64,000 nucleotides of DNA from a virus (lineage: Duplodnaviria; Caudoviricetes): positions 6,370 through 70,369 of IMG/VR virus record IMGVR_UViG_3300032301_000767. One strand, 5' to 3'. Of the stretch, positions 34,132 through 57,208 are shown piece after piece. The notes under the pieces are model-generated. The model was given only the letters and a program-made list of their open reading frames with translations. It was not told the DNA's origin and did not search any database. Every line of letters starts with the position of its first letter. Positions within the stretch are counted from its first letter, which is position 1. The translations under genes were made by a program, and so were the position numbers.

Positions 34132-34812
34132 CTATAAACCACCAACGTGAAGTGTTTGGCCAGTCAAACTATTTGACCTCTCGTCTAAAAGAAGCTCTAC
34201 CAAGTCAGATATATCTTTCATTTCAAACATGCGCTCAATTATTTGTGCCTTTAAAGCAGGCTGATTTCCACCAACAATATGCTTTCTTGAAAGGTCGCTC
34301 ATTATAACTCCTGGGGCAATACAGTTTGCCCTTATTTTTGTATTGGACAGCTGCTTTGCAAAGCCTCTAGTAAATGACTCTACTCCAGCCTTTGAAGCTG
34401 CGTACATAGTCGCTTCGTTAGATATGTGTGCAGCTAAACTTGATATATTTACTATAGATGTGTGAACTTCTGGATTCATATTTTGAAGGAACGCTTGACA
34501 TGAATTAAACACTCCATTTAAATTTGTATCTATGAGGTTATAAACTTTGTCTTCAAAAAATATTCCAGCTGCAGAAGGCTCATATATACCAGCGCAATTT
34601 ATTAATCCAGTTACCTGTTTTTTGCTATCAAGTATGTCTCTAGATATTCTATAAAGCGCTTTTATATCTCTAACATCTGACATAATAGTTGGAAATTTAG
34701 GATCATACATTGGTTTATTTAAAGTAATTCCAAGAACTTCTTTACCCAACGAGTGAAGTCTTTCTCCTACATCCCGCCCCATTCCAGATCCAGATCCAGT
34801 TACAATTATCAT
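34132..34812 (-). CDS. Short-chain dehydrogenase/reductase (SDR)
   Basis: TGSGSGMG Rossmann motif, INCAG, YAASK catalytic YxxxK. Confidence 0.9.
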   Translation of the reverse strand: MIIVTGSGSGMGRDVGERLHSLGKEVLGITLNKPMYDPKFPTIMSDVRDIKALYRISRDILDSKKQVTGLINCAGIYEPSAAGIFFEDKVYNLIDTNLNGVFNSCQAFLQNMNPEVHTSIVNISSLAAHISNEATMYAASKAGVESFTRGFAKQLSNTKIRANCIAPGVIMSDLSRKHIVGGNQPALKAQIIERMFEMKDISDLVELLLDERSNSLTGQTLHVGGL

Positions 34813-35468
34813 TCTGAACCGTCCGAATAGTATGGATTCTTTCTATTGTGGTACCAGTTTGGCAGAGAGTATCTAGTTCCCTTTGTAACTGCGTCAACCT
34901 CATGAACATAAACAAAATTAGATGGGAAGAAAAGTATTGTTCCAGCCTCTGGCTTAAGCTCAAGATTAAGATGTGGGAATCTTAATGTTCCGCCTTCATA
35001 ATCATCATTGAGATATAGCAATGCAGACAAAACTCTGCTACTTATTCCATGATCTGAATGAGCTGGTAAAAATCCACTTTCTTTATATTTCAAAACATGC
35101 ATTGTTTTTTCTCTAGCCTTAATATTTTTTTCTGCGTAAGGATAGATAGTGAAGTAGTGATTAAGTGCAGTTTCAAGAGAGCCAAATAGCTCTGAAGATA
35201 TAAAATGCTGTTCTTTATAAAATTTATCAGAAATGGATATGTCTTCTGGTTTAGGCAAGAATTTTTGCCAACAGAAAACAGTTTTTTCTGGACCGCCATG
35301 ATCATAATCCCAAGCAGTCCATTCTTTTACAAAAGGAGACTGATAAGACTCATCTTGTTGTCTTTTTATTTCTAGCTCTTCAATTTTATCAATAATTAAT
35401 TGCGGATCTTTAATTATACCGTTGTACTGAACTACGCCAAGCGCAAGCTGTTTAAACTCCATTAGCAT
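34809..35468 (-). CDS. 2OG-Fe(II) oxygenase, prolyl-4-hydroxylase-like
   Basis: HSD...YLNDDYEGG.L.F...HEV...GTRYS. Confidence 0.9.
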   Translation of the reverse strand: MLMEFKQLALGVVQYNGIIKDPQLIIDKIEELEIKRQQDESYQSPFVKEWTAWDYDHGGPEKTVFCWQKFLPKPEDISISDKFYKEQHFISSELFGSLETALNHYFTIYPYAEKNIKAREKTMHVLKYKESGFLPAHSDHGISSRVLSALLYLNDDYEGGTLRFPHLNLELKPEAGTILFFPSNFVYVHEVDAVTKGTRYSLPNWYHNRKNPYYSDGSE

Positions 35469-36004
35469 CCCTCAAAATCTGGATCCATAAACTCTTTTTG
35501 CGTTGATTGCATAAAGAGTGCCGTATATCTATTGCCAGTTTCAACTTTTGAAACACCGTGCAAATATTCATAGTCGTTTCCTGGGAAAAATAATGCAGAG
35601 AATTTCTTTGGACTGTGTGAAAAATTTTGTTTTGGAAAATATATGTCTCCCCCAGTGTAGCCATCATTGAGGTATATTACAGAGCTATATTCTATAAAAG
35701 GCTCCTTTTCTATTGCATCTATGTGAGGATTGCCACTCATTCCTGGGCCCCACCCTGAACCAAAAGATTTTGTAATTATCACGTCTTTATCTGTTTCAAA
35801 AAATTCTTTCTGAATTAAATTAGCTTTCTTGGCATACTTTCTTAATATACTCATAACCGTATTATTGTACGGGAAAGCAGTTCCACCATTTCTGTCAGCA
35901 TAATAATCTGGATAGTTATTTACAGAAGAAGGGTTTGTGATTTCTGATATTAAAGTTTGTGCATCGTAGTCTTCAATAAAGTTTTCAACTATTTTTATTT
36001 TCAT
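35462..36004 (-). CDS. 2OG-Fe(II) oxygenase, prolyl-4-hydroxylase-like
   Basis: HID...YLNDGYTGGDIYF...HGV...GNRYT. Confidence 0.9.
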   Translation of the reverse strand: MKIKIVENFIEDYDAQTLISEITNPSSVNNYPDYYADRNGGTAFPYNNTVMSILRKYAKKANLIQKEFFETDKDVIITKSFGSGWGPGMSGNPHIDAIEKEPFIEYSSVIYLNDGYTGGDIYFPKQNFSHSPKKFSALFFPGNDYEYLHGVSKVETGNRYTALFMQSTQKEFMDPDFEGC

Positions 36005-36651
36005 CCTAGTGGCACCCAACTTTGATCGTAGTACCCACCAGCTGAAATAAATCTAAGCGGTGTAACGTCATAGGCTATAGTTATTCTATCTTCTTCAAAT
36101 GGCCAAAGACCAATGCTATGGGGGTGTCCAGTTTCCGATAAAATTGCTCTATTGTTTTTATTAACATTTTCAAAGGCAGCATCACCATGTATTTTATAAT
36201 AGGTGGAGCTTGGTTCTGCATTTACGCAATAGTATCCATGAAAATAAGGGAACCCTTTGCCCTCGGAATGGTCGTGATATGAATCTTTGTTGTCTAGGTC
36301 AACATGGTTTTTGCTTCCTTCGGAATTAAACCACCCATGCAACATAAACTTTTCTTTTTCGAAATCAAGTCCATAATATTCACAGGCTTCAATTGTCAAA
36401 GACCTTAAAGTTTTATACAGGTTATAAATTTCTTCATTGTAAAACTGAAAGATGTTGTAAAAGTTGTCTATGCGCTGTGGATTATAGCTATTAAAATAAT
36501 CTTTTGGTGCTGTAGCAAGTACATCTTTCCCTACACCAGCTACTTGACCGTTCTTTAGCTCTTCTTTTTTATTAAGCAAATATTCCTTTAAGCTATCTAA
36601 ATCATTATTTAGGTAAGCGTCAAAAAATTTATGCTGCTTAGTATTATCCAT
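36001..36651 (-). CDS. 2OG-Fe(II) oxygenase-like protein (HxH type)
   Basis: GWFN...HDH...HGYYCV...HPH...RITIAYD; paralogue of 37481. Confidence 0.7.
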   Translation of the reverse strand: MDNTKQHKFFDAYLNNDLDSLKEYLLNKKEELKNGQVAGVGKDVLATAPKDYFNSYNPQRIDNFYNIFQFYNEEIYNLYKTLRSLTIEACEYYGLDFEKEKFMLHGWFNSEGSKNHVDLDNKDSYHDHSEGKGFPYFHGYYCVNAEPSSTYYKIHGDAAFENVNKNNRAILSETGHPHSIGLWPFEEDRITIAYDVTPLRFISAGGYYDQSWVPLG

Positions 36652-37481
36652 TAATTTATTATCCTTGTCTTGTTTAGATATCTCTCTCCGCCAATTTTGT
36701 CGGTTTCTGATTTTTCAATTGTGTACTCAATATCATCATCTTCGAATGGAAATGGTATTACTTCTATCCCAAACAAACCAATGATATTTCTTTCATTGTT
36801 TTCTATAAACTTGTTGTATTTGTGAGTTAATGAAAATGGGACATAGCCATTATTTTCAAGAGGAAGGGTGTTGTTTTGAAACAACTTTGTTGGGCAGCAC
36901 AGTAAGTGGTAATGTTTTTGATTTATCATTATAGACATCTTTTCTTCTTCTCCATAATATTTAAGCTCCACTGGGTATCCAACACGCTTTATGTCAGAAC
37001 TTAAACAGAATATAAAGTCTCTATCTATCATATCAACATTAGAATAATCTTCCGAAACAGACTTTATTTTTTCTATCATAAACAAATTTTTGTTTTTAAA
37101 TTCTAATTTATGATTTCCAGAAATAATTGTTTGATTTTTATATCTTACTGATTCAATTTTATCTACTAAAGACACATCCCAGTCTTTAGACATAACAACT
37201 CCGTCTCCGCACTGCATAAAGTATTCTGAAGCAAGTATTCTTGATCCATCAAATTTGTGTGCGATTGGGCTTTTTATTGAATCCCACTTTGTGTGCTTAT
37301 ATATTATTTTTACGTGACTAGCAGTTATGTCAAACAATCTTGATCGCTCAACATTATTTTGATCTATGATGTAAAACGACAAGTCATGCAAGCCGCTAGA
37401 TTTATTAACAATATCGGTAACACTATCAATCAGATCTTTATTCTGAAAGCTGTATACAAATATGCCAATACTTTTCTTCAT
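36651..37481 (-). CDS. Glycosyltransferase, GT-A fold, resembling GT60 (hydroxyproline GlcNAc transferase) family
   Basis: IFVYSFQNKDL...EYFMQ....DWD..L and YYGEE motifs resemble the GT60 pattern; the DSH motif is diverged. Confidence 0.5.
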   Translation of the reverse strand: MKKSIGIFVYSFQNKDLIDSVTDIVNKSSGLHDLSFYIIDQNNVERSRLFDITASHVKIIYKHTKWDSIKSPIAHKFDGSRILASEYFMQCGDGVVMSKDWDVSLVDKIESVRYKNQTIISGNHKLEFKNKNLFMIEKIKSVSEDYSNVDMIDRDFIFCLSSDIKRVGYPVELKYYGEEEKMSIMINQKHYHLLCCPTKLFQNNTLPLENNGYVPFSLTHKYNKFIENNERNIIGLFGIEVIPFPFEDDDIEYTIEKSETDKIGGERYLNKTRIIN

Positions 37482-38131
37482 TATAGGAGAGGTATCCAAT
37501 GCTGCTGTGGTGCATTTGCTTCAATTAAGCTCTTTAAAGGCATTACGTCATAGGCTATTGTTACTCTAGGACCTTCCCAATCCCAGTCTCCCATTGCATG
37601 TGGGTGACCCATTTCAGAAACAATCATTCTATTATTCTTATTATGGTTTGCAGTTTCTGTGCCAAAAACATTATAGTAGGTGATTGAGGGCTCTGCGTTT
37701 ACTGAATAGTAACCGTGAAAATAGGGGGCATAAGGGCCGCCGTGATCATGCCAATCAAGCTTACCAGTATGATTGTAATTAATGTTAAACCAACCTTGTA
37801 CCATATACTTTTGTTCTTCAAAATTAACTCCGTAATATTCACACGCTTCTTTTATAATATCAGAAAGTGATTTATATAGCTTGTGAATCCCATCGTGGTA
37901 GAACTGAAATACATTATACTCTCTCCACTTGATCGTGGAAACACTTGAAGACGAAAGCCAGGCATCTTTCTGGTTTACTGGAGTAATTCCTTTTAGACTT
38001 AGATTTTCCATGCTTGCGTATTGGTTTTGCAAAAATGTTGCTAAGTCTTGAAGATCGTTGTCTAAGTATCTTTCAAAAAACTTATGATCTTTACCGCTTG
38101 GCTTATTCAGCATCATCGGATTGTAATCCAT
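37481..38131 (-). CDS. 2OG-Fe(II) oxygenase-like protein (HxH type)
   Basis: GWFN...HDH...HGYYSV...HPH...RVTIAYD. Confidence 0.7.
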   Translation of the reverse strand: MDYNPMMLNKPSGKDHKFFERYLDNDLQDLATFLQNQYASMENLSLKGITPVNQKDAWLSSSSVSTIKWREYNVFQFYHDGIHKLYKSLSDIIKEACEYYGVNFEEQKYMVQGWFNINYNHTGKLDWHDHGGPYAPYFHGYYSVNAEPSITYYNVFGTETANHNKNNRMIVSEMGHPHAMGDWDWEGPRVTIAYDVMPLKSLIEANAPQQHWIPLL

Positions 38132-38882
38132 CTGACATTCCTTTTCTGTAATTTTTCCTTTGCCATATATAGTTTTTATAATATGCAAATATTGATATTC
38201 TTCTTCGTTCTTCTTTAATCTTGTTTTCTTCTATACTCTTTTCGGAGTAATCTATTTCCAAATCCCAATCATCTCTTTTGATTGGTATCATTTGAAAGAT
38301 AGGAGTTCCTTTTGGTATTGTTCCAATAAAATTCCTTTTTAAAAAAAAGGCAGTAAATACTGGAGTGTGCCATTTATCTGTATCAATTATCCCAGATAAA
38401 GTCGTGAATGGCAAGTCATGCCTATTCATTGGGTGGGTTATTAGCATTGAGTACCCTGGTGGAGTCTCACAGTACCAATTTACCTTCCATCCAAAATGTA
38501 GGGGGTGATGGGCTGTAGGAACTGGGACGTCAATCATGTTTCTTTTATCTATTATCATGGCTTCCCCGTCCCAGGTTATTGTAGGGAATCCGTCTTTATC
38601 TAAATCAACATGCACGTCATAGTCAAGCTTGTACATGTAGCCAGCAGCCAGGGTATCAAAAAAGGGCATACATAATTTAGTTCCAGCCGCACTTCCGTCA
38701 GTTCCACGATCATTTACTGGGTGAAGTTTAGATATGTTGTTAGACTTTTGAAAACGAGAAAGTCTTCTATACCAATCTGGTAAAAACCTTACAGAGGGTT
38801 CTGGTTCTGAAAGATAATTATTGCTCTTCGGATCAAAATTACTTCCAAACGTTGCTGGGGTAAACTTTACTACTTTACTCAT
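38103..38882 (-). CDS. DUF6065-like protein (dUTPase-like beta fold, unknown function)
   Basis: PDWY...KLCMPFFD...TPPGYSMLITHPMN...GIIDTD...IPKGTPIFQMIPIKR. Confidence 0.55.
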   Translation of the reverse strand: MSKVVKFTPATFGSNFDPKSNNYLSEPEPSVRFLPDWYRRLSRFQKSNNISKLHPVNDRGTDGSAAGTKLCMPFFDTLAAGYMYKLDYDVHVDLDKDGFPTITWDGEAMIIDKRNMIDVPVPTAHHPLHFGWKVNWYCETPPGYSMLITHPMNRHDLPFTTLSGIIDTDKWHTPVFTAFFLKRNFIGTIPKGTPIFQMIPIKRDDWDLEIDYSEKSIEENKIKEERRRISIFAYYKNYIWQRKNYRKGMSDGLQSDDAE

Positions 38883-39585
38883 TGCAAAGCCTGTCAATAA
38901 AATCGGAAGATGCATTTATTTGCATTTCATACATGTATGAACCCCTTTCTATTATTCCAACAGTTTCTGTTTCCATATGCCTTTTAGACTTAGTAAAATA
39001 AAAATCAATAAAGCAAGGTTCTTTTATTCTATCATTTTCGTTGGATTTTGTAAAAGAGCCCCTAAAGTCCATAATTTTAATTGATGGGTTTTCTATTGTT
39101 GAGGTGACAAAAAAATCAATATCCTCATCTATAACCCAAGGAGTATATAATTTAAAGCACCTATCAGAAATAATATCCATGCCTGAAGTATCATATACAT
39201 TGGGGGATGGGTAAAATTGTCTTTGCCAAACCTTATCAACCGAATAAAAAATCTCATTGATTGGTTGTGATTTAAATATACCAAGGTGCCCAAGCGGTGG
39301 GTCAGCAATCTGAACTAGCATGTCAGCATAATTATAATATTCTATTGTAGCTGAAGTATCCGAAGTTTTAATAACTTTTGGCCTAATAGAAAAAAAGGAA
39401 GCATATAAATTTACTGGTTTTAATATCTTGTCGTGATACTCACGGCTAAATTTTACTTCATTCCAGGCAGCCCATTTAGGGAACATGTTAGAATAATTCA
39501 TTATTTCTGCAAAAGTCATAGTGCCCATCTTGCTCCAAGACTCTGCTTCATATGGTGTTTTTAATATGTTTTTAGATGGCTTCAC
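38875..39585 (-). CDS. Hypothetical protein, possibly divergent DUF6065-like
   Basis: FKLYTPW...IIERGSYMY resembles the C-terminus of its neighbours. Confidence 0.5.
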   Translation of the reverse strand: MKPSKNILKTPYEAESWSKMGTMTFAEIMNYSNMFPKWAAWNEVKFSREYHDKILKPVNLYASFFSIRPKVIKTSDTSATIEYYNYADMLVQIADPPLGHLGIFKSQPINEIFYSVDKVWQRQFYPSPNVYDTSGMDIISDRCFKLYTPWVIDEDIDFFVTSTIENPSIKIMDFRGSFTKSNENDRIKEPCFIDFYFTKSKRHMETETVGIIERGSYMYEMQINASSDFIDRLCNE

Positions 39586-40298
39586 TTAAAGGTTTTCTTT
39601 GACCACTTTTTTAAACGATATCCATTTTGAAAAACAGATCGTACTGACAATTGGCTCGCTCTGTTTGCAAGATCAGAGTCTTTATCTTTATTAATTTCGC
39701 TTTCCCAATCATCTCTCTTAAAAGGTATTACTTGTAATAGCGGAGTTCCTTGCTTGATTACACCTTTAAAACCCTTTTCAACAAAAAAAGAAAGATATCC
39801 ATCAGAAGGATATTCGTCGGTATCAATGAGACCTGGTATTGCTCTTATCGGTATGTGGTCTGCGTGTATTGGTGCAATGAATAATGAGCTATAACCTGGT
39901 TCTGTTTTTGCAAGCCACATTGGATGTATTCTTAAAACATCATTGTGGAAGTAAGGTGGTATTGGGTATTCCGATATTTGCTCTTTAAGGTGATGGGCCA
40001 AAAGAAATTTTTGAAACTCCATAACATCGTTTGCAACTTCAAATTTTACTCTTTCTCCAGTAGCATCAATATTTAAATCCATAGGACAAAATAAATAATA
40101 CCCTGCAGCCATTGCATCAAATACAGCTTGGCATTTTTTTACAGTAAGAAGCATGTTTCCGTTATATACTCCATTATCGTTATTCAAATAACTTTCCTGC
40201 TTTTTCCACCACTCTGGTATGTGTTTTTGTATCGACTCTGGCTTAGGAAAAACACCAGCCAGGAATCTGTACTTGGGAATAAATTCTATTTTACTCAT
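39582..40298 (-). CDS. DUF6065-like protein (paralogue of 38103)
   Basis: PEWW...KKCQAVFD...TEPGYSSLFIAP...GLIDTD...IKQGTPLLQVIPFKR. Confidence 0.55.
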   Translation of the reverse strand: MSKIEFIPKYRFLAGVFPKPESIQKHIPEWWKKQESYLNNDNGVYNGNMLLTVKKCQAVFDAMAAGYYLFCPMDLNIDATGERVKFEVANDVMEFQKFLLAHHLKEQISEYPIPPYFHNDVLRIHPMWLAKTEPGYSSLFIAPIHADHIPIRAIPGLIDTDEYPSDGYLSFFVEKGFKGVIKQGTPLLQVIPFKRDDWESEINKDKDSDLANRASQLSVRSVFQNGYRLKKWSKKTFK

Positions 40299-40864
40299 AT
40301 TATAGGCATCCATTTCTGATAGTATTGTCTGTGTAAATATTCAAGTGGTGATATATTTATAACTACCGCCATAAAATCATCGCTTAAATTATTAAAAACA
40401 GCTTTTGTAGATGAATTAAATATCATTAAGCTTGATGGCTCCATATTTATATCATTGTCTTCTACTACTATTCTATCATTATTTGATGAAATAATATATA
40501 GGGCCCAAAATGTAGTTCTAAAATTTGGAGCAAAGTTTAGAGGTACGGATATCGGAATATTTTTATTGTTAATTACTCTACCATATAGATAGGGAAAGCT
40601 TCTTTCAAAATTAATTTTTTCTTCAGCAAATATATTCTTTACAGAAAGGCACACCTCTTTATATATAGAATATATTTCTTTACTATACATTCCAAAAAAA
40701 TTAAATGTGTTTGGATCAACTAAGGATACACGTTTTGCTTTTTTTGATATATTCTTTCCAAAGCCTTTATTTATATCTGCAACATGCTCAAACATGGAGT
40801 CTACCATTTCTAAATAGTTGTGCTTTAGAAAAGCGTTGTCTATGCCATTAACTCTTTTTATCAT
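40295..40864 (-). CDS. Hypothetical protein, probable degenerate paralogue of the HxH oxygenases
   Basis: FNFFGMYSKEIYSIYK and terminal ISPL....YQKWMPI echo 36001/37481, but the metal ligands are absent. Confidence 0.45.
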   Translation of the reverse strand: MIKRVNGIDNAFLKHNYLEMVDSMFEHVADINKGFGKNISKKAKRVSLVDPNTFNFFGMYSKEIYSIYKEVCLSVKNIFAEEKINFERSFPYLYGRVINNKNIPISVPLNFAPNFRTTFWALYIISSNNDRIVVEDNDINMEPSSLMIFNSSTKAVFNNLSDDFMAVVINISPLEYLHRQYYQKWMPII

Positions 40865-41483
40865 CTGGCTCCCAAATACTAAATGAATGCCATGCTGCTG
40901 GCATTATAGGATCTTTATATGGTGCATGCTCTGCTTCTAATAAGACTTGTGGCTTTACCCCGCCCATTATGTTGTCCAGCTCTTCTGGCTTTGATATATC
41001 GACTCTTTTCATAAAAGATATGAGCTTAGTCATTTTTAATTGCAAATCAAATCCAGCCTGTGTGTGTGCACCGCCTTGTCTAACTAATACGTTATAGTAA
41101 AATCTAAAAATAGAGTATCCAAGTATTGCAAGAGAAGAGTTTATTCTTTTTCTTCTCTTTAAAGGTGATGTGTAAAATCTATCACCATAAGCAATATGAC
41201 AATTTTTATCTTTATCATATTGAGCAAACATTATTGAAGCCCATGAATCTGGGTAAGAATTGTTTATAAAATTAGAAAAAACTATAGTTCCAGAAGGTCT
41301 ATCATCATTAAAATAAATACATTCTATTGCTCTAGAACCGTATCTATCATTTAAGATTGTCCACTGTCCCCACGAGCCAGAAAGGTAAACTGGATACCTT
41401 CTAAAGGTAGGAAATATATTTCCTTTATACCAGATTACCCTTCTGAACCCATAAGCAATAAGTTGCTTTAGAGTGTGTAGCAT
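40848..41483 (-). CDS. Hypothetical protein, possible GNAT-like acyltransferase
   Basis: FYTSPLKRRKRINSSL loosely resembles GNAT motif A. Confidence 0.4.
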   Translation of the reverse strand: MLHTLKQLIAYGFRRVIWYKGNIFPTFRRYPVYLSGSWGQWTILNDRYGSRAIECIYFNDDRPSGTIVFSNFINNSYPDSWASIMFAQYDKDKNCHIAYGDRFYTSPLKRRKRINSSLAILGYSIFRFYYNVLVRQGGAHTQAGFDLQLKMTKLISFMKRVDISKPEELDNIMGGVKPQVLLEAEHAPYKDPIMPAAWHSFSIWEPDDKKS

Positions 41484-41486
41484 TAA

Positions 41487-42881
41487 TTATGCTGGTGGAT
41501 TGTTTGGATCAACAGGGTTATCCTGTTGAGATTGCTTCCATTGCTGGTAAAGCTCTTCTAGCGAAGTAGATAGATTTTGTTCTGGCGAGGTTATAACTCC
41601 TGGCGCATTTAAATCTAAAGGCTGTGAATCGTGAACCAATGCATTGTCTGTAAAGAATACGTCGTAAGGCTCGGTGTTAATTGTAATAACTAACTCTTTT
41701 CCTGTTGATTCTCTTAGTTCAATAATTGGCTGCCAGTCTTGGAATGTAGGAGAGAATACTAGATCTGATTCTACTACATCAGTAACATTAACAAACTTTC
41801 CAAGTCCGTCTCTCTTTACAAGTATGTAGTGAGATATGGAGTATTTATTTCCGTTAATAACAATAACTTTGTCAACAATGTGTGCTGATAAAGCAGTAAT
41901 TGTAGTTTCAACTGCTGTGTTTATTACTGGATTCTCTTCAGACCAACCTGCAAAGTATTCTGCAATTGGGACCTCTGTTGCAAGATCTAATCCCTCAATA
42001 TCAGCTGAGTAAAGAACATCTCCTACTGAAAGGTTATGTGCTAGAACTAGTCCTTCTGGGACCTTAGAGCTGATAAGTGTATCTGCACCAATTGATTTAA
42101 CTGGTGTGAAACCAAATGGAGTAAATCCAAACGGAGTAAATCCAAACGGAGTAAAGCCAAACGGAGTAAAGCCAAATGGCGTAAATCCGAATGGGGTGAA
42201 GCCGAATGGCGTAAATCCGAATGGGGTGAAGCCGAATGGGGTAAATCCGAACGGAGAAAATCCGAAAGGAACAAAGCTAAATGCTGTTGTTACGTTTCCA
42301 GATGATCCAGATGTTCCTGAGTTACCATTGGCATTTGTTGCATAAACTGTATAAGTCTGAGCTGAGCCCATTTCTTGACCAACTACTACAGATGTGCTTG
42401 CTGTGTCTCCAGCTTTTCCGTCAGATGCTGCCCAGCGATAGTTTGTAATTCCTTTTCCACCATTTGCTGGGGCTGACCATGAGACGTTGTCTTGTCCAGC
42501 ATTTGGAGAAGAAGCGCTTGGTGCTGAAGGCGTATTTGGAACTGTTGTTGCTGTAACTGAAGCAGAAGCTGCAGACGCAACAGATGTTCCAGAAGCATTC
42601 GACGCCCGAACTGTGAATGTATAACCAGTACCAGACAAAAGTCCTTGTACTGTTAGTGGGGAAGAAGCTCCAGTGGCTGTAAAGCCTCCTGGAGACGATG
42701 TTACAGTGTAAGAAGTAGCAGCAGGCGAATCACCTGGTAAGCTAAAGGATACAGTTACCGCACCATTATTGTATGGACGGTTTGTTCCAACATCTGTTGC
42801 TGATGTAATTGACGGCTGTTTAGGCTCAAGGAAGTCATTGGCTGCCTGTGATCTTTGTCCGAATCTTTTAATAATTGCCAT
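41487..42881 (-). CDS. FN3-domain protein with (FGFTP)n repeats and C-terminal Hint domain
   Basis: Two FN3 domains, 12 pentapeptide repeats, 156-aa Hint-like domain SIGADT...LVHD/S. Confidence 0.85.
   Translation of the reverse strand: MAIIKRFGQRSQAANDFLEPKQPSITSATDVGTNRPYNNGAVTVSFSLPGDSPAATSYTVTSSPGGFTATGASSPLTVQGLLSGTGYTFTVRASNASGTSVASAASASVTATTVPNTPSAPSASSPNAGQDNVSWSAPANGGKGITNYRWAASDGKAGDTASTSVVVGQEMGSAQTYTVYATNANGNSGTSGSSGNVTTAFSFVPFGFSPFGFTPFGFTPFGFTPFGFTPFGFTPFGFTPFGFTPFGFTPFGFTPFGFTPVKSIGADTLISSKVPEGLVLAHNLSVGDVLYSADIEGLDLATEVPIAEYFAGWSEENPVINTAVETTITALSAHIVDKVIVINGNKYSISHYILVKRDGLGKFVNVTDVVESDLVFSPTFQDWQPIIELRESTGKELVITINTEPYDVFFTDNALVHDSQPLDLNAPGVITSPEQNLSTSLEELYQQWKQSQQDNPVDPNNPPA
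42102..42281 (-). repeat. 12 x 15-bp coding tandem repeat (FSFVP, FGFSP, 10 x FGFTP)
   Basis: Units counted in the DNA; variation almost only at synonymous positions. Confidence 0.95.
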
Positions 42882-42902
42882 TTATATATCTCCTAAGTTT
42901 CT

Positions 42903-44654
42903 TTAAGCTGAAAGATCGCCCATTACGATCCATGTATTTGCTGCTCTCTTTAGAAGGGTAGCTGATGACCACTGGGTTCTTAATTTTAATCCTGGTGTTG
43001 CATTAACTGTTACTCCACCTGCACCAGCAATTGAAACTTGGCCAGTACCTGACTGAAGAATATCAATTGATGTTCCAACTGGGTAGTTAACTGTTGCATC
43101 TGCTGGAATTGTAACTGCTACTGCTGAAGCAGAAGAGACTTCAATTAAGTTATCTCTTTCAGTAAGAGATGAAAGTGTGTATGCTGCTGTTTTCTGAATA
43201 ATTGGTGTGCGTGAAGGAACGCCTTCTTTTGTCTGTGTGCCGTCTGTAAACGCTACTCCTGCTGCTGCAACTGTTACTGTGCCAGTAAATGTTGGTGAAG
43301 CAAGTGGAGCCTTTAGAGCAAGGTTTGTTGTTACTGTTGATGCGAAGTTTGCGTCATCACCAAGTGCTGCTGCAAGTTCGTCAAGAGTATTTAGTGCTGC
43401 TGGAGCACCTGTTAATAATGCGTTAACCTGTGATGTTGCATCTGCGATTGCTTCTGATTTAGCAGTTGCAATTGCTGAAGCCTGTGCTGTAGATACTGGC
43501 TTAGCTGAGTCTGCTGTGTTGTCAACATTTGCTAGGCCTACTGAAGACTTTGTAAGTGCTGCTACTGCAGTTGAAACCTTTGTATCTGCTGCAGTACCTG
43601 CTGCTGTAATTGCTTCTGACTTAGCAGTTGCGACATTTGCTGTAGTTGCAAGAAGTGACGTGTCTGCAATTCCGTGAACATTTGTTGTGTCTGCTGTGTG
43701 AACACCAAGAGCTGTATCTGCAGCAGCTATTGCTGCTGTTTGCGCTGTTGAAGATGATGTGTCAGCATAAGACTTTGTTGCAAGAAGTGTTGTATCAGCA
43801 ATTCCATGAACGTCTGTTGTATCTGCTGAGTGTCCTGAAACTGCACCATCTGCATAAGTACGGTCCTGAGTAGACTTGCTGTCTGTGTATGTATTTGCTG
43901 ATGTTCCTGCATTTGTTGCTGCTGTCATAGCAAGACCATGCTGTGTATTTACATATGAAACAGTTTCATCTATTTCTGCATCTGTGTATGTCTTTGCTGC
44001 ATTAAACTTTGTATCTGTGTATGTCTGTGCTGTATCAAACTTTGTATTTGCATAAGTTGTCAAGTCTGTTCTAGCCAAAGAAACGTTTGATAGCGTTGCA
44101 AGCAAAGAAACGTCAGGGATTCCGTGAACATCTGTTGTCTTTGTCTTGTGTACATCTAGAGCCAAAAGATCTTGTGTCTGTAGATACTCTGCATATGTTC
44201 TTGTAGAAATGACAGTTGTATCTATCTCTGATGTAGGAACTTTACCCTGTGCATTAAGAGATGCTACTCCGTTGGCTGCCCCTCTATCATCTAGCGGAAT
44301 GTATGTTGAATCTACTGTATTGCTTAATGAGCTAATAGCTGATGTTACGTATGACCGATTTGCCCATACAGTGTCATCAATTGCAATTGTAATTGTATTT
44401 GCGCCATCGTTGTATGTCTTTGTAAGACCAGTTCCCATTGAAAGGGCTGCGTTAATTGCGTCTTGTGATATTTCGGTAATGCCAGCTGTATCAGCATTAG
44501 CGTATGAAAGCGCTGACCATGTTGCTGTTCCGTTACCAAATTTAAATTTATTTGTGTCTGTTTCAACACCCATTTCTCCTGCTGCCAGGATTGGGTTTGT
44601 TGAGGTCCACTGTGAAGCGGTTCCTCTTCTTACTTGAATTCTTACTGTTGCCAT
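42903..44654 (-). CDS. Tail/head fibre protein with Mtd-N-like N-terminus
   Basis: IQVRRGTASQWTSTNPILAAGEMGVETDT N-terminus, HGIADT repeats, GAPAALNTLDELAAAL motif, WIVMGDL C-terminus. Confidence 0.75.
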   Translation of the reverse strand: MATVRIQVRRGTASQWTSTNPILAAGEMGVETDTNKFKFGNGTATWSALSYANADTAGITEISQDAINAALSMGTGLTKTYNDGANTITIAIDDTVWANRSYVTSAISSLSNTVDSTYIPLDDRGAANGVASLNAQGKVPTSEIDTTVISTRTYAEYLQTQDLLALDVHKTKTTDVHGIPDVSLLATLSNVSLARTDLTTYANTKFDTAQTYTDTKFNAAKTYTDAEIDETVSYVNTQHGLAMTAATNAGTSANTYTDSKSTQDRTYADGAVSGHSADTTDVHGIADTTLLATKSYADTSSSTAQTAAIAAADTALGVHTADTTNVHGIADTSLLATTANVATAKSEAITAAGTAADTKVSTAVAALTKSSVGLANVDNTADSAKPVSTAQASAIATAKSEAIADATSQVNALLTGAPAALNTLDELAAALGDDANFASTVTTNLALKAPLASPTFTGTVTVAAAGVAFTDGTQTKEGVPSRTPIIQKTAAYTLSSLTERDNLIEVSSASAVAVTIPADATVNYPVGTSIDILQSGTGQVSIAGAGGVTVNATPGLKLRTQWSSATLLKRAANTWIVMGDLSA

Positions 44655-44672
44655 TTTGATCTCCTATTTTAT

Positions 44673-44681
44673 ATTATAGCA
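44673..44681 (-). promoter_or_regulatory. Extended -10 promoter TGCTATAAT heading the fibre/tailoring operon
   Basis: Consensus TGnTATAAT 18 nt upstream of ATG 44654; AGGAG RBS. Confidence 0.6.
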
Positions 44682-47109: not shown

Positions 47110-49854
47110 TTAAGCAGGAGGGTTTTCCTGAGAAAGCTTCCATTCTTGATAAATTGTTTCTAATGCTTGTGAAAGATTCTGGTCGGAAGATGTTATTACT
47201 CCTGGAGTATTTTCATCAAACTCGTGAGAGTCATGGACAATAGCATTATCTGTAAAAAATACATCATACGGCTCGGTATTAATAGATATTACAAGTTCCT
47301 TACCTTCAAGAACTTTAAGGTCTATTATTGGCTGCCATGAATCAAATAGTGGGCTAAACACCATGTCAGACTCAAGCACTTCATAGACTTTTACAAATTT
47401 TACAATGTTTTCTCTTTTAACTAAAACATAGTGTGAATAAGAATATTTGTTTCCGTTAATAACAATAACTTTATCAACAATTCTTGCAGACAACGAAACA
47501 ATTGTTGTTTCAAGATTTGTATCAATATTAGGATTTTCTGTTGACCAGGATCCAAGGTACTCAGACAAAGTTTGTCCAGATGAAAGATCTAAGCCTTCAA
47601 TGTCTGCCGTATACAAAATATCTCCAACAGAAAGGTTGTGGGCTAGAGTTAATCCTTCTGGAACTTTTGATGCTACAAGTGTGTCTGCACCAATTGATTT
47701 AACTGGTGTAAACGAAAACGGTGTAAAACCAAATGGTGTAAACCCGAATGGTGTAAACCCGAATGGGGTGAAGCCAAATGGCGTAAAACCAAATGGTGTA
47801 AAACCAAATGGAGGAACATAGCATGCATTTGGTATTCCCAATATAGCTATAATTTGATCGCTAGTAAGATTAGGATTTTGTGTTTGCCCATAAATATAAC
47901 TTGTTCCAGCTCCACCTGATGGTGATCCGTATCCTCCGCTATATGCACCGCTAAATCCATTACATCTTACATATATTGCATATCCTGGTGCTTGGTACTG
48001 ATATCTATTAATGCTAATAGAAGCTGGTAAAGATATATATCGTTTGTCATAAGCAGATCCAGCAATTGGAGATTGTGCAACAATTTTTCCATCTAACGTA
48101 TAGTCTGAAGTTCCAGTGTTTTGGTTAGTTGTTAGTGTCCAATCACCATAGGTTCCATCTGATGTATATGTGCCCACATAATTTGGAGCATAAACATATT
48201 CTACTTCTGGCTCTTGGTACACATAAGAACTTACGCTTACGGTTAGTGGCAACTGGTTTTGAGGAACTAAATATGTTCCAGCTCCTGGGCTTTGACTTGC
48301 AATTTTTCCAGCTAAAGATTGATTAGATGTTCCAGTTGCTGCCGCATGATAAATTACATAGTTTGTTCCATTATTGGCACCTGGTTGACCAACAAAATTT
48401 GGGACTACTACAGATGTTGGTGGGTTTTGAGTAGCAGTTGCAACTTGAGCTGACGCAACTACATCTGATGTGCCAGCGCTATTTGTTGCTGTTGCAAATG
48501 CTCTAAATCGTGTTCCAGCTTCAACATCTAATGCATTTACGGTATATGATGGGCTTACACCAGTTGCAAATACAAATCCGTCTGATATAGAAGTTGGTGT
48601 TCTGTATGAATCACCTACAATTGATACTGATGTAGATGTTGGGTTCGGCGTCCAGCCAGATGTAGATCCATATAACGTAGTGCCTGGATAAACTGCTCCA
48701 TTTGAAGAAAGAAAAGCCGTTCCGCCTGTTGGCTTAATATTTGCTGATGTAGCTTTACCAGCAACTGCATCTATGTATCCAGAAAAACCTCTTGCTGTTC
48801 CATAAACCCTAACTTTCCAAGGTCCAGTTTCTACACCTGCACCAGTCTGTATATATGCAAAATTACTTCCAGATGTTACTGGTCCACGATACCAAATCCA
48901 CTGCATTTCATTTACTTCATCATTAAATGTTTCATAGTATATTTCATACTGAGTTTGATTAATATTAACAGCGTTCCAATTAATTCTAAGAGCTGTGTCA
49001 TAAACATATGGAGATATTGCTTCTATTGTTGAGGTTACAGATGGCTTTTTAGGTAGTAAATCAAGAATATCTTTGCTTTGCCCATTACCAGTAAATTTAA
49101 AGTTAGGCTGCGCTGTTGCCCATTGCCACCAAGACAAAGCTTGGCTTGTGTCATTATAAGGCTGCACAGAAATTGACATTGTTGTTTTGCCAATTAAAAA
49201 TTCTAAATCTGGAGACCCAAAATCTTTATCAAATAAGTTATTTTGTTTTCCAACAATTGTTAATTCTGTGTAAGGAATTCCTGGTCCTTGATACCATACC
49301 TTATATCCATCTGCACCTTCAGAAACATCCCAAAAAAATCTTATTGATCCGTTTATATATCCGCTGCCATCTTGTTGAACAAATGCTGTTGCATTTGCTA
49401 TTCTTTGTGGAGGTAGTGGTGAGCTATCAATTGATGCATATACTGGCTCACTATCTGAAGACCCATTAACTGCAATAACCTTACATCTAATAAAATATCC
49501 TACTTGACTTGCAGTTAAAAGATAACTGCTTGAAGTTCCATTTGGCAAATCTTCCCATTGTGTTGTAGAACCCTGAACATTGTATCCTTTTTGCCACTGA
49601 TACTTATATGATTCTGGAGTTATAGTCCAGGTTCCATTGCTAACACTTACTGTTTGTCCTACTCCAGCTCCAAATGATCCAGCAGACCATGTAAATTCTG
49701 GTAAAGAAATATTAGATTGCCCACTATATATTTCAACCCAAGCAGATCCATTCCAAGTAAAAGCTTTTTTAGCGAATTGCCATGTGGCTCCGTCATAAAG
49801 CTTAACTAATTTTGAATTTTTCCAACTTGAGCCATCAAATATTTTAATAGACAT
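47110..49854 (-). CDS. Ig/FN3- and PASTA-like domain protein with (FGFTP)n repeats and C-terminal Hint domain
   Basis: Ig-like modules (GTW...YKYQWQ...YFIRCKV), two VPN(F/Y)VG...G.I..QSP.AG PASTA-like units, 7 pentapeptide repeats, 156-aa Hint domain. Confidence 0.85.
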   Translation of the reverse strand: MSIKIFDGSSWKNSKLVKLYDGATWQFAKKAFTWNGSAWVEIYSGQSNISLPEFTWSAGSFGAGVGQTVSVSNGTWTITPESYKYQWQKGYNVQGSTTQWEDLPNGTSSSYLLTASQVGYFIRCKVIAVNGSSDSEPVYASIDSSPLPPQRIANATAFVQQDGSGYINGSIRFFWDVSEGADGYKVWYQGPGIPYTELTIVGKQNNLFDKDFGSPDLEFLIGKTTMSISVQPYNDTSQALSWWQWATAQPNFKFTGNGQSKDILDLLPKKPSVTSTIEAISPYVYDTALRINWNAVNINQTQYEIYYETFNDEVNEMQWIWYRGPVTSGSNFAYIQTGAGVETGPWKVRVYGTARGFSGYIDAVAGKATSANIKPTGGTAFLSSNGAVYPGTTLYGSTSGWTPNPTSTSVSIVGDSYRTPTSISDGFVFATGVSPSYTVNALDVEAGTRFRAFATATNSAGTSDVVASAQVATATQNPPTSVVVPNFVGQPGANNGTNYVIYHAAATGTSNQSLAGKIASQSPGAGTYLVPQNQLPLTVSVSSYVYQEPEVEYVYAPNYVGTYTSDGTYGDWTLTTNQNTGTSDYTLDGKIVAQSPIAGSAYDKRYISLPASISINRYQYQAPGYAIYVRCNGFSGAYSGGYGSPSGGAGTSYIYGQTQNPNLTSDQIIAILGIPNACYVPPFGFTPFGFTPFGFTPFGFTPFGFTPFGFTPFSFTPVKSIGADTLVASKVPEGLTLAHNLSVGDILYTADIEGLDLSSGQTLSEYLGSWSTENPNIDTNLETTIVSLSARIVDKVIVINGNKYSYSHYVLVKRENIVKFVKVYEVLESDMVFSPLFDSWQPIIDLKVLEGKELVISINTEPYDVFFTDNAIVHDSHEFDENTPGVITSSDQNLSQALETIYQEWKLSQENPPA
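47704..47808 (-). repeat. 7 x 15-bp coding tandem repeat (6 x FGFTP + FSFTP)
   Basis: Units counted in the DNA; synonymous variation. Confidence 0.95.
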
Positions 49855-56976: not shown

Positions 56977-56986
56977 AGGGGATGGG

Positions 56987-57208
56987 ATGAAGATACAATA
57001 TGTATCAACCTACATCTCCATGTCAGAAGATGGATTGGTTGAAAAGCTATTATGCCCAGTAGACCAATCCAATCTTTTTTGTAATCAAGACCTAGAAGAC
57101 AGAATATTTCTTTATTGTCTAGAATGCCAGTATAAAAACTTTATTGGTCTTGACCTGTACAATAGAATTATTAAGGCGGTAGAATTAAAGTATGTCAGTA
57201 ATAATTAA
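56987..57208 (+). CDS. Small Zn-ribbon-like protein
   Basis: CPVD...CLEC; coupled to neighbours. Confidence 0.6.
   Translation: MKIQYVSTYISMSEDGLVEKLLCPVDQSNLFCNQDLEDRIFLYCLECQYKNFIGLDLYNRIIKAVELKYVSNN

What the first reader, a model, noticed from the sequence alone, without database searches (positions are those of the whole stretch)
34132..44681. Candidate undescribed phage peptide-tailoring system: (FGFTP)n-Hint substrate gene heading an 11-gene modification operon
Seen: the FN3-(FGFTP)n-Hint gene (41487-42881) is followed, with 3-nt or overlapping junctions, by 11 genes. These are a GNAT-like ORF, a degenerate oxygenase-like ORF, two DUF6065-like paralogues plus a possible third, two HxH 2OG oxygenases, a GT60-like glycosyltransferase, two P4H-like oxygenases and an SDR. 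All lie downstream of one TGCTATAAT promoter, inside the virion gene block. Established: P4H followed by a GT60 GlcNAc transferase is the logic of Dictyostelium Skp1 hydroxyproline glycosylation, and repeated cores with co-transcribed tailoring enzymes is the logic of RiPP clusters. Inference: the Pro/Thr/Phe repeats are the substrate. They are either hydroxylated, glycosylated or acylated as a virion surface coat, or excised as repeated peptide cores, with the Hint domain doing the cleavage or ligation.
Basis: partly seen in the sequence, partly recalled or inferred. Interest (0 to 1): 0.92.

Follow-up and report, generated by a model that had tools for sequence, protein, structure and literature searches.

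The report
Phage repeat-Hint fibre protein with enzymes
An uncultured freshwater phage makes a fibre-type protein ending in a greasy Phe-Gly-Phe-Thr-Pro repeat and a self-cutting intein-like domain, followed by hydroxylase and sugar-transferase genes that probably decorate the repeat, though no chemistry has been shown.

Summary
The core observation holds. Gene 41487-42881 (minus strand) encodes two FN3 domains, about 12 FGFTP units, a true Hint fold and a 45-residue tail. Eleven tightly packed genes follow it. Supported labels are: SDR, two collagen-type P4H-like oxygenases, a GT-A transferase nearest PF11397/GT60, two His-rich oxygenase-like paralogues plus a ligand-less third, and two DUF6065-like proteins. 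The DUF6065-like proteins fold like dUTPases, not oxygenases. 'GNAT-like' and 'one promoter' are not supported.

The repeat protein belongs to a large uncultured-phage family (539 tblastn relatives in IMG/VR). Its aromatic tract differs by lineage: FGFTP, YSFTP, FGA, PFFP, NFY. In 68 of 68 loci with enough flank, at least one of these enzyme families lies just downstream, against 1 of 59 upstream. The number of P4H-type genes tracks tract proline content (rho 0.88). Proline-free tracts have none and PFFP tracts have 4-8.

It remains positional, and after phylogenetic correction too few independent transitions remain. A RiPP-like reading is unlikely.

This scan has noted the same system before on other genomes (25 notes). 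The enzyme array with a dUTPase-fold cysteine protein was published for cyanophage Syn9 in 2010. My searches found no paper on the repeat-Hint partner.

The parts
41487..42881 (-). Repeat-Hint protein, 464 aa. Parts in order: conserved N-terminus, two FN3 domains, FSFVP-FGFSP-(FGFTP)10, Hint domain (Ser263 ... His-Asp|Ser) and a 45-aa helical tail.
42115..42270 (-). 15-nt tandem array encoding the FGFTP units (10.4 copies, 85% nt matches).
   Evidence: The peptide unit is kept exactly in relatives whose Hint domain is only 50-55% identical, with 5-12 copies.
41490..42101 (-). Hint domain plus tail (204 aa). Invariant Lys-Ser at the start, block-B His, and terminal His-Asp-Ser.
   Evidence: Alignment A1, model, Foldseek, PDB profile hit 9hth at E 0.085 aligning the block-B His and the terminal VH(A)S.
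47110..49854 (-). Second carrier of the same cassette, 914 aa. It has an unrelated N-terminal part, then (FGFTP)6-FSFTP, a Hint domain and the tail.
   Evidence: 70% nt identity to the first copy, translation, tandem array 47704-47811.
40848..41483 (-). g02, 211 aa, no family. Found only beside Ser1-type Hint genes.
40295..40864 (-). g03, 189 aa. Ligand-less paralogue of the His-rich oxygenase-like genes.
   Evidence: hhalign 96.6%, E 5.6e-10
39582..40313 (-). g04, DUF6065-like, dUTPase-type beta barrel with an invariant Cys.
38875..39585 (-). g05, 236 aa, unknown. Its relation to DUF6065 is undecided.
   Evidence: hhalign 41%
38103..38915 (-). g06, second DUF6065-like paralogue (26% identical to g04).
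37481..38188 (-). g07, His-rich (HDH ... HPH) oxygenase-like protein. The true start is probably the ATG at residue 20.
   Evidence: Invariant His residues in A2. Atlas: 18 of 30 nearest clusters belong to the set that carries PF13759. No Pfam hit.
36651..37499 (-). g08, GT-A glycosyltransferase, nearest PF11397 (GT60-type) and GT2.
36001..36651 (-). g09, paralogue of g07 (46% identical).
35462..36019 (-). g10, P4H-like 2OG oxygenase (HID ... H ... RYT read from the sequence).
34809..35468 (-). g11, P4H-like 2OG oxygenase (PF13640; HSD ... H ... RYS read from the sequence).
34132..34812 (-). g12, classical short-chain dehydrogenase/reductase, FabG-like.
42903..44654 (-). Upstream fibre gene (Mtd_N). 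The TGCTATAAT motif at 44673-44681 precedes this gene.

Best explanation
The gene at 41487-42881 and its paralogous cassette in 47110-49854 encode virion-appendage-type proteins. Their C-terminal end is a low-complexity aromatic tract, (FGFTP)n, capped by a Hint domain.

The eleven genes that follow are a dedicated tailoring cassette, expressed with the late structural genes. I infer these steps:
1. The two collagen-type P4H-like oxygenases hydroxylate the one proline in each unit.
2. The PF11397-like GT-A enzyme adds a sugar to hydroxyproline or threonine.
3. The His-rich oxygenase-like proteins and the dUTPase-fold DUF6065-like proteins make further modifications that are still unknown.
4. 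The Hint domain undergoes an N-O acyl shift at its first residue, Ser263. It then cuts itself off, or hands the tract's C-terminus to another nucleophile. This exposes a chemically modified tract on the particle.

Shown here: the architecture, the Hint fold, the enzyme folds and families, the strict downstream position, and the match between tract composition and enzyme set across relatives.

Inferred: every chemical step, the timing, and the location on the virion.
For: Synteny. The whole block lies downstream of the cassette in all 25 of 35 IMG/VR loci that have enough flank, at 35-80% protein identity.

Sample found with the FN3 N-terminus only. This sample (539 relatives, best 80 fetched) was not selected on the enzymes.
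- 68 of 68 loci with a complete protein and at least 3 kb of downstream flank have at least one of DUF6065-like, HxH-like or P4H-like within 6 kb on the same strand. The median distance to the first is 500 nt.
- Upstream, only 1 of 59 loci has any of them.

Dose and type match.
- P4H-type gene number against tract proline fraction: Spearman 0.876 for n=62, and 0.876 for 50 unique N-termini.
- By tract class: Pro-rich tracts have 4-8 P4H genes (n=28). (FGA)n tracts have 0 P4H genes and 1 DUF6065-like gene (n=8). N-F/Y-Y tracts have 0 P4H genes and 1 HxH gene (n=2).
- A (PFFP)n protein in L148 is followed by seven PF13640 genes and a DUF6065 gene above Pfam's cut-off.
- 'Pro-rich' and '3 or more P4H genes' change at the same 5 places on the tree.

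Enzyme identity. The nearest solved relatives of g11 and g10 are peptidyl-Pro and peptidyl-Lys hydroxylases: B. anthracis P4H, P3H1 and LH3.

Selection on the tract. The exact FGFTP unit is kept in relatives whose Hint domain is only 50-55% identical.

Hint domain. The position-1 nucleophile is kept in 30 of 31 distinct tails.

Possible expression. An RNA-library run holds contigs on g10 (254 nt, 0 differences) and on the repeat gene (452 nt, 11 differences). DNA carry-over is not excluded.
Against: No modification has been observed. All evidence is positional and comparative.

The loci are related phages with conserved gene order. After allowing for kinship, only 2 (well-supported branches) or 5 (all branches) independent contrasts remain, and the sign test cannot reach 0.05.

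Proline content does not predict everything. (Y/F-S/A-F-T-P)n tracts with 18-19% Pro have no P4H gene (L156, L157). Some FGxFGF(S/T)P tracts with 15% Pro have none either.

The enzymes also occur without such a tract.
- The DUF6065-like gene of halovirus HF2 is a lone gene, with no aromatic repeat in 14.7 kb.
- In cyanophage S-RIM44 it sits with tryptophan halogenases and 2OG oxygenases after a giant tail fibre. The sequence I read there holds no aromatic repeat.

Iyer et al. 2010 read such cyanophage arrays as secondary-metabolite genes (PMC2938197, passages read).

The window holds more oxygenase-type genes elsewhere (P450 and sulfotransferase at 57-60 kb), so such genes are not confined to this site.

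For chlorovirus PBCV-1, a review reports that hydroxyproline was not detected in virion proteins despite an active viral P4H (PMC7019647, passage read).
Confidence: 0.55

Rival explanations
1. Accessory-gene hot spot. The site between the fibre genes and the portal module is simply where these phages keep variable auxiliary genes. The oxygenases, the dUTPase-fold protein, the GT and the SDR would act on small molecules, nucleotides or host envelope components, as proposed for the cyanophage arrays, and not on the neighbouring protein.
For: The gene content of the block varies between lineages.

The same enzyme families occur in cyanomyovirus S-RIM44 and in haloviruses without an aromatic-repeat gene in the sequence I read.

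Iyer et al. 2010 interpret the Syn9 array as metabolite biosynthesis.

The DUF6065-like fold is that of nucleotide enzymes.

The window has a second enzyme island with a P450 and a sulfotransferase.
Against: A hot spot does not explain why P4H gene number follows tract proline content (rho 0.876). It also does not explain why Pro-free tracts have none.

The nearest solved relatives of g10 and g11 are protein hydroxylases.

At least one of these enzyme families is present downstream in 68 of 68 loci, not just sometimes.

In S-RIM44 and HF2 the genes also lie beside fibre genes.
Confidence: 0.27
2. The enzymes modify other virion proteins. A candidate is the collagen-like fibre with an S74 chaperone domain encoded just downstream (32918-34099), as in collagen hydroxylation. 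The Ala-rich fibres upstream are another.
For: 32918-34099 has a collagen triple-helix repeat (1.5e-5) and Peptidase_S74 (2.3e-15).

The nearest solved relatives of g10 and g11 are collagen-type hydroxylases.

Iyer et al. 2010 propose collagen-like and tail-collar proteins as substrates of co-encoded hydroxylases and sulfotransferases.
Against: The collagen/S74 fibre is not kept with the block. Only 3 of the 35 loci have an orthologue covering at least 70% of it, against 25-29 loci for each enzyme gene.

In the wider family it is the aromatic tract's proline content, not a collagen gene, that tracks P4H number.
Confidence: 0.1
3. RiPP-like reading. The FGFTP units are repeated core peptides. 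They would be modified and then excised as small products, with the Hint domain providing cleavage or ligation.
For: Repeated identical units lie next to co-oriented tailoring enzymes. An autoprocessing domain sits at the end of the tract.
Against: The carrier has two FN3 domains and an N-terminus that is conserved across the family at 48-68% identity. It sits among fibre genes.

I found no protease, cyclase or exporter in the block.

A Hint domain cuts once, at its own junction, not between units (established knowledge of Hint chemistry).

40 of 78 family members have no Hint domain.
Confidence: 0.04

Closest known systems
Bacterial intein-like (BIL) domains and Hedgehog/Hog C-terminal autoprocessing domains of the Hint superfamily (e.g. 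PDB 2lwy, 6y75, 1at0), and Ser1 inteins such as the Aes123 PolB1 intein (9hth)
   Same: The fold is the same (Foldseek). The domain has a nucleophile at position 1, a block-B His and a penultimate His. In most family members it sits at the C-terminal end of a host protein with only 1-7 residues after it, as in Hedgehog-type processing.
   Different: The window's clade has Ser1, a terminal His-Asp in place of His-Asn, a Ser at +1 and a conserved 39-46-residue helical tail. No Pfam Hint model matches at E up to 10. The domain is not a mobile insert in a housekeeping gene. It is a facultative cap on an aromatic repeat tract of phage fibre-type proteins.
[quoted passage not shown]
   Same: Both are arrays of several distinct 2OG dioxygenases plus a dUTPase-fold protein. 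Here that protein is DUF6065-like, with an invariant Cys61. tblastn finds distant relatives of g04 (23-24% identity) in five records of cyanophages S-RIM4 and S-RIM44. In S-RIM44 the match lies next to tryptophan halogenases and 2OG oxygenases.
   Different: The passages I read describe no repeat-Hint protein partner. The authors suggested metabolite biosynthesis. This window has no halogenases in the block, and it does have a GT and an SDR. The block directly follows a candidate protein substrate.
Skp1 prolyl hydroxylation and glycosylation in Dictyostelium (P4H1, then the GT60 enzyme Gnt1); recalled, not read here
   Same: A P4H-type 2OG oxygenase is combined with a GT-A enzyme nearest to Pfam PF11397 'Glycosyltransferase (GlcNAc)'.
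   Different: The candidate substrate is a repeat tract, not a single Pro of Skp1. The PF11397 match is below the curated cut-off. There are many extra enzymes.
Virus-encoded modification of the virus's own repeat or structural proteins: PBCV-1 prolyl 4-hydroxylase acting on Pro-containing peptides (PMC7019647, passage read), and mycobacteriophage virion glycosylation by phage glycosyltransferases (Freeman et al. 2023, seen only as cited in PMC11256854)
   Same: A viral enzyme is encoded with a viral protein that carries its likely target residues. In phage Che8, glycans are attached to the major capsid protein.
   Different: Here a multi-enzyme cassette is matched to a variable aromatic tract and combined with a Hint cap. 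For PBCV-1 the natural substrate is still unknown, and hydroxyproline was not detected in virions.

Membership tests
Hint superfamily (inteins, BIL, Hedgehog) | Hint fold | tested here: met
   AF2 model with pLDDT 70.1. All printed Foldseek PDB rows down to rank 47 are inteins, BIL or Hedgehog domains. 5 hits have E <= 0.001. 2lwy has TMt 0.62 and rmsd 3.6.
Hint superfamily (inteins, BIL, Hedgehog) | Nucleophile (Cys/Ser/Thr) at position 1 and a block-B His | tested here: met
   Ser13 and His101 are invariant in 16 sequences. Position 1 is Cys (16) or Ser (14) in 30 of 31 distinct family tails. The block-B Thr is not conserved.
Canonical splicing intein | C-terminal His-Asn followed by a Cys/Ser/Thr at +1 | tested here: not met
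   The window's clade has His-Asp-Ser, invariant. 11 of 31 family tails have His-Asn but end 1-4 residues later. Whether Asp can cyclise here cannot be tested with these tools.
Canonical splicing intein | Autocatalytic cleavage or splicing | not testable with these tools
   Needs expression and mass spectrometry.
Collagen-type prolyl 4-hydroxylase / 2OG-FeII_Oxy_3 (PF13640) | Profile match above the curated cut-off | tested here: met
   g11: 60.4 bits against 27. g10: no Pfam hit, but phrog_61 at 2.3e-14 and B. anthracis P4H at 1.4e-3, so g10 alone is inconclusive.
Collagen-type prolyl 4-hydroxylase / 2OG-FeII_Oxy_3 (PF13640) | HxD...H iron triad and a basic residue that binds 2OG | tested here: met
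   Read from the translations: g11 has HSD ... H ... RYS and g10 has HID ... H ... RYT. The residue roles are assigned by recalled motif knowledge.
Collagen-type prolyl 4-hydroxylase / 2OG-FeII_Oxy_3 (PF13640) | Hydroxylates peptidyl proline | not testable with these tools
   Only indirect evidence: P4H gene number tracks tract proline content.
GT60 / PF11397 GlcNAc transferase | Profile match above the cut-off | tested here: inconclusive
   The window's protein has no hit at E <= 0.1. 6 of 11 orthologues hit PF11397, best E 4.2e-4. The Atlas model has TM 0.71 to a cluster in which 100% of members carry PF11397, and about the same to GT2 clusters.
DUF6065 (PF19541) | Profile match above the cut-off | tested here: inconclusive
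   g06 scores 24.0 bits and g04 21.4 bits against 26.6. Both match phrog_7084 at e-37 and e-39. A family member in L148 scores 92 bits.
dUTPase / dCTP deaminase superfamily | Fold | tested here: met
   Model with pLDDT 84.3. VIA-align: 22 chains with Z >= 5, all dUTPases, dCTP deaminases or herpesvirus dUTPase-related proteins. The top match has Z 9.9, rmsd 3.2 and 120 aligned residues. The next unrelated row has Z 4.9.
dUTPase / dCTP deaminase superfamily | Nucleotide-binding motifs and activity | not tested
   G-I-I-D-T-D and a conserved Gln resemble dUTPase motifs III and IV by recall only. The Arg residues of motifs II and IV are not evident.
2OG-FeII_Oxy_5 (PF13759) for the HxH genes g07 and g09 | Profile match | tested here: inconclusive
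   No Pfam or NCBIfam hit and no PDB profile hit. Atlas language-model features: 18 of 30 nearest clusters belong to the set that carries PF13759; the listed example carries it on 57% of its members.
GNAT acetyltransferase for g02 | Profile match | tested here: inconclusive
   PF00583 in 3 of 10 orthologues, best E 0.0074. None of 13 homologous clusters has a Pfam domain on record.
Short-chain dehydrogenase/reductase | Profile match above the cut-off | tested here: met
   adh_short at 117.5 bits against 26.6. FabG-like NCBIfam matches are all below their equivalog cut-offs.
RiPP biosynthetic cluster | Short precursor with leader and core, plus a dedicated protease, cyclase or exporter | tested here: not met
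   The carrier is 464 aa with two FN3 domains. None of the eleven genes matched a protease or transporter family.

The most novel reading that the evidence does not exclude
Uncultured freshwater phages carry a modular substrate-plus-enzymes system. A fibre-type scaffold displays an interchangeable aromatic low-complexity tract, and each tract type travels with its own matched enzyme set.

In this reading the enzymes turn the tract into a hydroxylated, glycosylated or cross-linked adhesive or shield, analogous to plant extensins or mussel foot proteins.

The Hint cap would not merely fall off. It would use its (thio)ester to attach the modified tract covalently to another virion component or a host surface molecule.

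The dUTPase-fold Cys protein (DUF6065) and g02, which occurs only with Ser1-type Hints, would carry out peptide chemistries that have not been described.
Probability: 0.15. Interest if true: 0.92.

Novelty: new variant of a known kind. Interest (0 to 1): 0.74.

Why it matters
P4H-type and other 2OG oxygenases are among the commonest 'auxiliary' genes of aquatic phages. Their substrates are unknown. A published reading treats the cyanophage arrays as metabolite pathways. Even for the enzymatically proven PBCV-1 P4H the natural target is unknown.

This locus, and the family around it, offers a concrete and cheap test. There is a named protein tract next to the enzymes, with natural 'controls' in relatives: Pro-free tracts without P4H genes, and Pro-rich tracts with 4-8.

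If the tract is modified, it would show that bacteriophages build heavily post-translationally modified appendages. It would give a function to DUF6065. It would also add a new biological role for Hint domains outside inteins and Hedgehog.

Tried and rejected
Searches of cultured phage genomes.
- megablast of the block: no match.
- tblastn of the whole repeat protein: no match.
- tblastn of its FN3 N-terminus at E 1e-3: no match.
- tblastn of the L148 DUF6065 protein: no match.
So there is no cultured relative to lean on, apart from the portal (56% identical to the portals of Streptomyces phages).

Profile and family searches.
- Profile searches of the PDB sequences for the HxH family, the GT and the DUF6065-like family gave only chance-level rows or nothing.
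- Pfam gave no Hint family for the Hint domain at E up to 10.
- NCBIfam gave nothing for g02, g04, g06, g07, g09 and g10. It gave only chance-level rows for g03 and g08.

Co-folding. Complex prediction with g04 (alignment A5) and the tract (residues 186-262) returned 'no answer' with score 0.00. It counts neither for nor against binding.

Kinship test. The independent-pairs test on the N-terminus tree cannot reach significance: 2 pairs on starred branches and 5 on all branches.

Literature.
- 'DUF6065': 0 papers.
- 'bacterial intein-like' + phage + 'tail fiber': 0 papers.
- 'Hint domain', bacteriophage, 'structural protein', autoprocessing: 67 papers hold at least 3 of the 4 terms and 12 were listed. 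I opened two (PMC3556154, PMC5259590). Both concern ordinary inteins in terminase or RNR genes.
- I therefore know of no paper on the repeat-Hint family, but the library lacks most subscription journals.
The supplementary data of Iyer et al. 2010 may list family members or neighbourhoods that bear on the Syn9 comparison.

Reads. All four runs are contigs, so no transcript start, end, strand or level can be read. Much of the block had no cover in the RNA run X19. That says nothing about expression. The small-share runs that I did not lay are not used for habitat.

Rejected ideas.
- DUF6065-like as a cupin or 2OG oxygenase: cupins reach only Z 2.8 against 9.9 for dUTPases.
- A DNA-hypermodification reading of the block: considered because of the dUTPase fold and the GT. 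I did not pursue it, because g10 and g11 match protein hydroxylases and Tet_JBP scored only 17.7 bits against a cut-off of 34.9.

Full report
WHAT IS THERE

The window is 64 kb of a 70,369-bp IMG/VR viral contig estimated 65% complete. All genes between 31 and 56 kb run on the minus strand. In transcription order they are:
- a ribonucleotide reductase;
- a head-decoration-like gene;
- several fibre genes with Mtd_N or tail-fibre PHROG matches;
- the 464-aa gene 41487-42881;
- eleven small genes;
- a collagen/S74 fibre;
- a LamG protein;
- then portal, protease, capsid, adaptor and a 2,483-aa tape measure.

The portal is 56% identical to the portals of large Streptomyces siphoviruses. An independent run labelled freshwater metagenome holds 55% of the sampled words. 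It covers much of the stretch in long pieces, for example 1,415 nt with 17 differences. This is an uncultured freshwater phage, probably of an actinobacterial host.

THE REPEAT-HINT PROTEIN

The protein has a conserved N-terminus and two FN3-like domains (fn3 8.7e-9). Then come FSFVP, FGFSP and ten FGFTP units, encoded by a 15-nt array with only 85% nucleotide matches. A 204-residue C-terminal part follows.

I aligned 16 versions of that part and folded it (pLDDT 70.1, pTM 0.69).
- Every printed Foldseek row down to rank 47 is an intein, a bacterial intein-like domain or a Hedgehog autoprocessing domain. Examples are the Ser1 Aes123 PolB1 intein at E 5e-5, C. thermocellum BIL with TMt 0.62, and Tetrahymena BIL2.
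- A profile search of PDB sequences finds the same Aes123 intein at E 0.085. It aligns the block-B His and the terminal V-H-(A)-S.
- Lys-Ser at the start, the block-B His and the terminal His-Asp-Ser are invariant.

The same tract-Hint-tail cassette, 70% identical in DNA, ends the otherwise unrelated 914-aa protein 47110-49854.

THE ELEVEN GENES

Junctions are 3 nt or overlapping. Evidence for each gene:
- g12: a classical SDR.
- g11: PF13640. Its nearest solved relatives by sequence are B. anthracis prolyl 4-hydroxylase, prolyl 3-hydroxylase 1 and lysyl hydroxylase LH3.
- g10: the same, more weakly.
- g08: a GT-A fold, with PF11397 (the GlcNAc-transferase family) as the only recurrent Pfam match among its orthologues. 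This holds for 6 of 11, best E 4e-4, below the cut-off.
- g07 and g09: paralogues with invariant HDH and HPH motifs. Their only family lead is a language-model resemblance to PF13759 clusters.
- g03: a homologue of g07 and g09 that has lost those histidines (hhalign 96.6%).
- g04 and g06: match DUF6065 just below Pfam's cut-off and phrog_7084 strongly.
- g05: its relation to g04 and g06 is undecided (41%).
- g02: the 'GNAT' label is not supported.

A 41-sequence alignment of the DUF6065-like family gave a good model (pLDDT 84.3). Its fold is that of dUTPases and dCTP deaminases. All 22 chains with Z of 5 or more belong to that superfamily. The top match has Z 9.9 and cupins reach only 2.8. So these are not oxygenases.

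The TGCTATAAT motif exists at 44673-44681. It lies upstream of the preceding fibre gene, and it is no more frequent in the window than chance.

DOES THE BLOCK BELONG WITH THE REPEAT GENE?

Three searches of IMG/VR bear on this.

(a) Search with the Hint part: 35 loci.
- 25 of the 35 carry matches to all eleven genes in the same order, at 35-80% identity.
- The other ten have at most 3.2 kb of downstream sequence. The exception is L034 (5.3 kb), which is centred on the upstream paralogue and is followed by fibre genes, as in the window.
- The FGFTP unit is kept exactly in all of them, with 5-12 copies.

(b) Search with the DUF6065-like family: 303 relatives, of which 79 loci were fetched.
- In lineages whose portal is only about 50% identical, the gene still lies a few genes after an FN3-FN3-tract protein.
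- The tract differs between lineages: (YSFTP)n, (FGFSP)n, (FGA)n, or FSP/FAP.
- The C-terminal end is a Hint with canonical Cys1 and terminal His-Asn, a degenerate Hint, or a Cys-rich knot.

(c) Search with the FN3 N-terminus alone, which does not select on enzymes: 539 relatives, best 80 fetched.
- Of the 80 loci, 68 have a complete protein and at least 3 kb downstream. The other 12 were set aside.
- All 68 have at least one of DUF6065-like, HxH-like or P4H-like within 6 kb on the same strand. The first lies at a median of 500 nt.
- In the 6 kb upstream, 58 of 59 loci have none.

THE ENZYME SET MATCHES THE TRACT

The sample was the 62 loci with at least 5 kb of flank.

| Tract class | n | P4H-type genes | Other enzyme families |
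|---|---|---|---|
| Pro-rich (PFFP, PPGFFA, FCPS types) | 28 | 4-8 | 0-3 DUF6065-like, no HxH |
| (FGA)n | 8 | 0 | 1 DUF6065-like |
| N-F/Y-Y | 2 | 0 | 1 HxH |
| FGxFGF(S/T)P | 17 | 0-2 | 0-4 HxH |
| (FGF-S/T-P)n, the window's type | 3 | 1-2 | 2 DUF6065-like, 2 HxH, 1 GT |

- One (PFFP)n protein, in L148, is followed by seven PF13640 genes and a DUF6065 gene at 92 bits.
- P4H number against tract proline fraction gives Spearman 0.876, both for all 62 loci and for the 50 with unique N-termini.
- On a tree of the N-termini, 'Pro-rich' and '3 or more P4H genes' each change five times, at the same places. One example is L167 (Pro-free, 0 P4H genes) beside L187 (35% Pro, 7 P4H genes).
- Only 2 independent pairs lie on well-supported branches, so the sign test cannot be significant.

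Exceptions: (Y/F-S/A-F-T-P)n tracts with 18-19% Pro have no P4H gene, and several 15%-Pro tracts have none.

THE HINT DOMAIN ACROSS THE FAMILY

I compared 78 complete proteins, 76 from loci plus the window's two.
- 38 have a C-terminal part of 120 residues or more. These give 31 distinct tails.
- Position 1 of those 31 tails is Cys in 16, Ser in 14 and Asn in 1.
- His-Asn ends 11 of them, followed by only 1-4 residues.
- His-Asp-Ser with a 39-46-residue tail occurs only in the window's clade (4 tails).
- The other 40 proteins have no Hint. They end in a Cys-rich knot or a few residues.

So the conserved chemistry is at the N-terminal junction, that is cleavage or transfer at the end of the tract. 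The Hint domain is a facultative cap.

g02 follows 11 of 12 Ser1-type Hint genes. It follows none of 21 Cys1-type and none of 39 Hint-less genes.

WHAT SPEAKS AGAINST THE SUBSTRATE READING

- Nothing chemical is shown.
- The loci are kin with conserved gene order.
- In halovirus HF2 the homologue is a lone gene, between the RNR gene and the tail module, with no aromatic repeat in 14.7 kb.
- In cyanophage S-RIM44 it sits with two tryptophan halogenases and several 2OG oxygenases. These follow a giant tail fibre and three Gly-rich 'tail fiber assembly' genes. The sequence I read there has no aromatic repeat.
- Iyer et al. [quoted passage not shown] They suggested metabolite biosynthesis. For other operons they proposed that co-encoded collagen-like or tail-collar proteins are hydroxylated and then sulfated (PMC2938197, passages read).
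- The window has a separate island with a P450 (1.2e-73) and a sulfotransferase (2.8e-6).

VERDICT

I put 0.55 on 'the cassette tailors the tract'. The rivals are a hot spot acting on other targets (0.27), other virion proteins (0.10) and RiPP-like peptides (0.04).

The enzyme array is known in print. The repeat-Hint partner and its match to the enzymes appear undescribed in the searches I ran.

Within this scan the same system has been noted on other genomes: 25 notes hold all the search words, in at least 21 genomes. Those notes are not independent evidence.

An RNA-library run holds contigs on g10 and on the repeat gene. As contigs from a library that may contain DNA, they are only a weak hint of expression.

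Noticed in passing
window 40848-41483 (g02) and loci L118-L197: g02, a 211-aa protein with no family, lies directly after the repeat gene in 11 of 12 loci whose Hint starts with Ser. It is absent from all 21 Cys1-type and all 39 Hint-less loci. It could be a helper for the less reactive oxyester of Ser1 Hints. Kinship was not controlled.
   Followed up: partly
window 39582-40313 and 38103-38915; L198 9070-9777; L117 6902-7786: DUF6065-like proteins have a dUTPase-type barrel with an invariant Cys. [quoted passage not shown] In halovirus HF2 and cyanophage S-RIM44 the homologue lies next to Gly-rich fibre or fibre-assembly genes.
   Followed up: partly
window 56422-59830: A second enzyme island on the plus strand: SLT-type lysozyme (9e-13), sulfotransferase (2.8e-6) and a full cytochrome P450 (1.2e-73). 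Iyer et al. 2010 linked hydroxylases and sulfotransferases to fibre-protein modification.
   Followed up: partly
loci L122-L192 (e.g. L122, L164, L171): Hint-less family members end in short Cys-rich segments with 6-8 cysteines, for example after (PFFP)n tracts. These may be disulfide knots or metal sites that replace the Hint cap.
   Followed up: no
window 42155-42319: Contigs of two freshwater DNA runs join across the repeat array, with 40 other letters between the two sides (tables 5 and 5c). Related strains therefore differ in the tract. This agrees with the 5-12 units seen among loci.
   Followed up: no
window 32918-34099: A fibre with a collagen triple-helix repeat and a Peptidase_S74 intramolecular chaperone domain lies directly after the enzyme block. 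Only 3 of the 35 related loci keep it at 70% coverage or more.
   Followed up: partly
window 14347-21798: A 2,483-aa tape measure gene.
   Followed up: no
L132, L150, L163 (repeat proteins of 500-590 aa): Some (FGA)n family members carry extra inserts between two aromatic tracts. The inserts are (Pro-Val/Thr/Ala)n linkers and Cys-containing modules.
   Followed up: no
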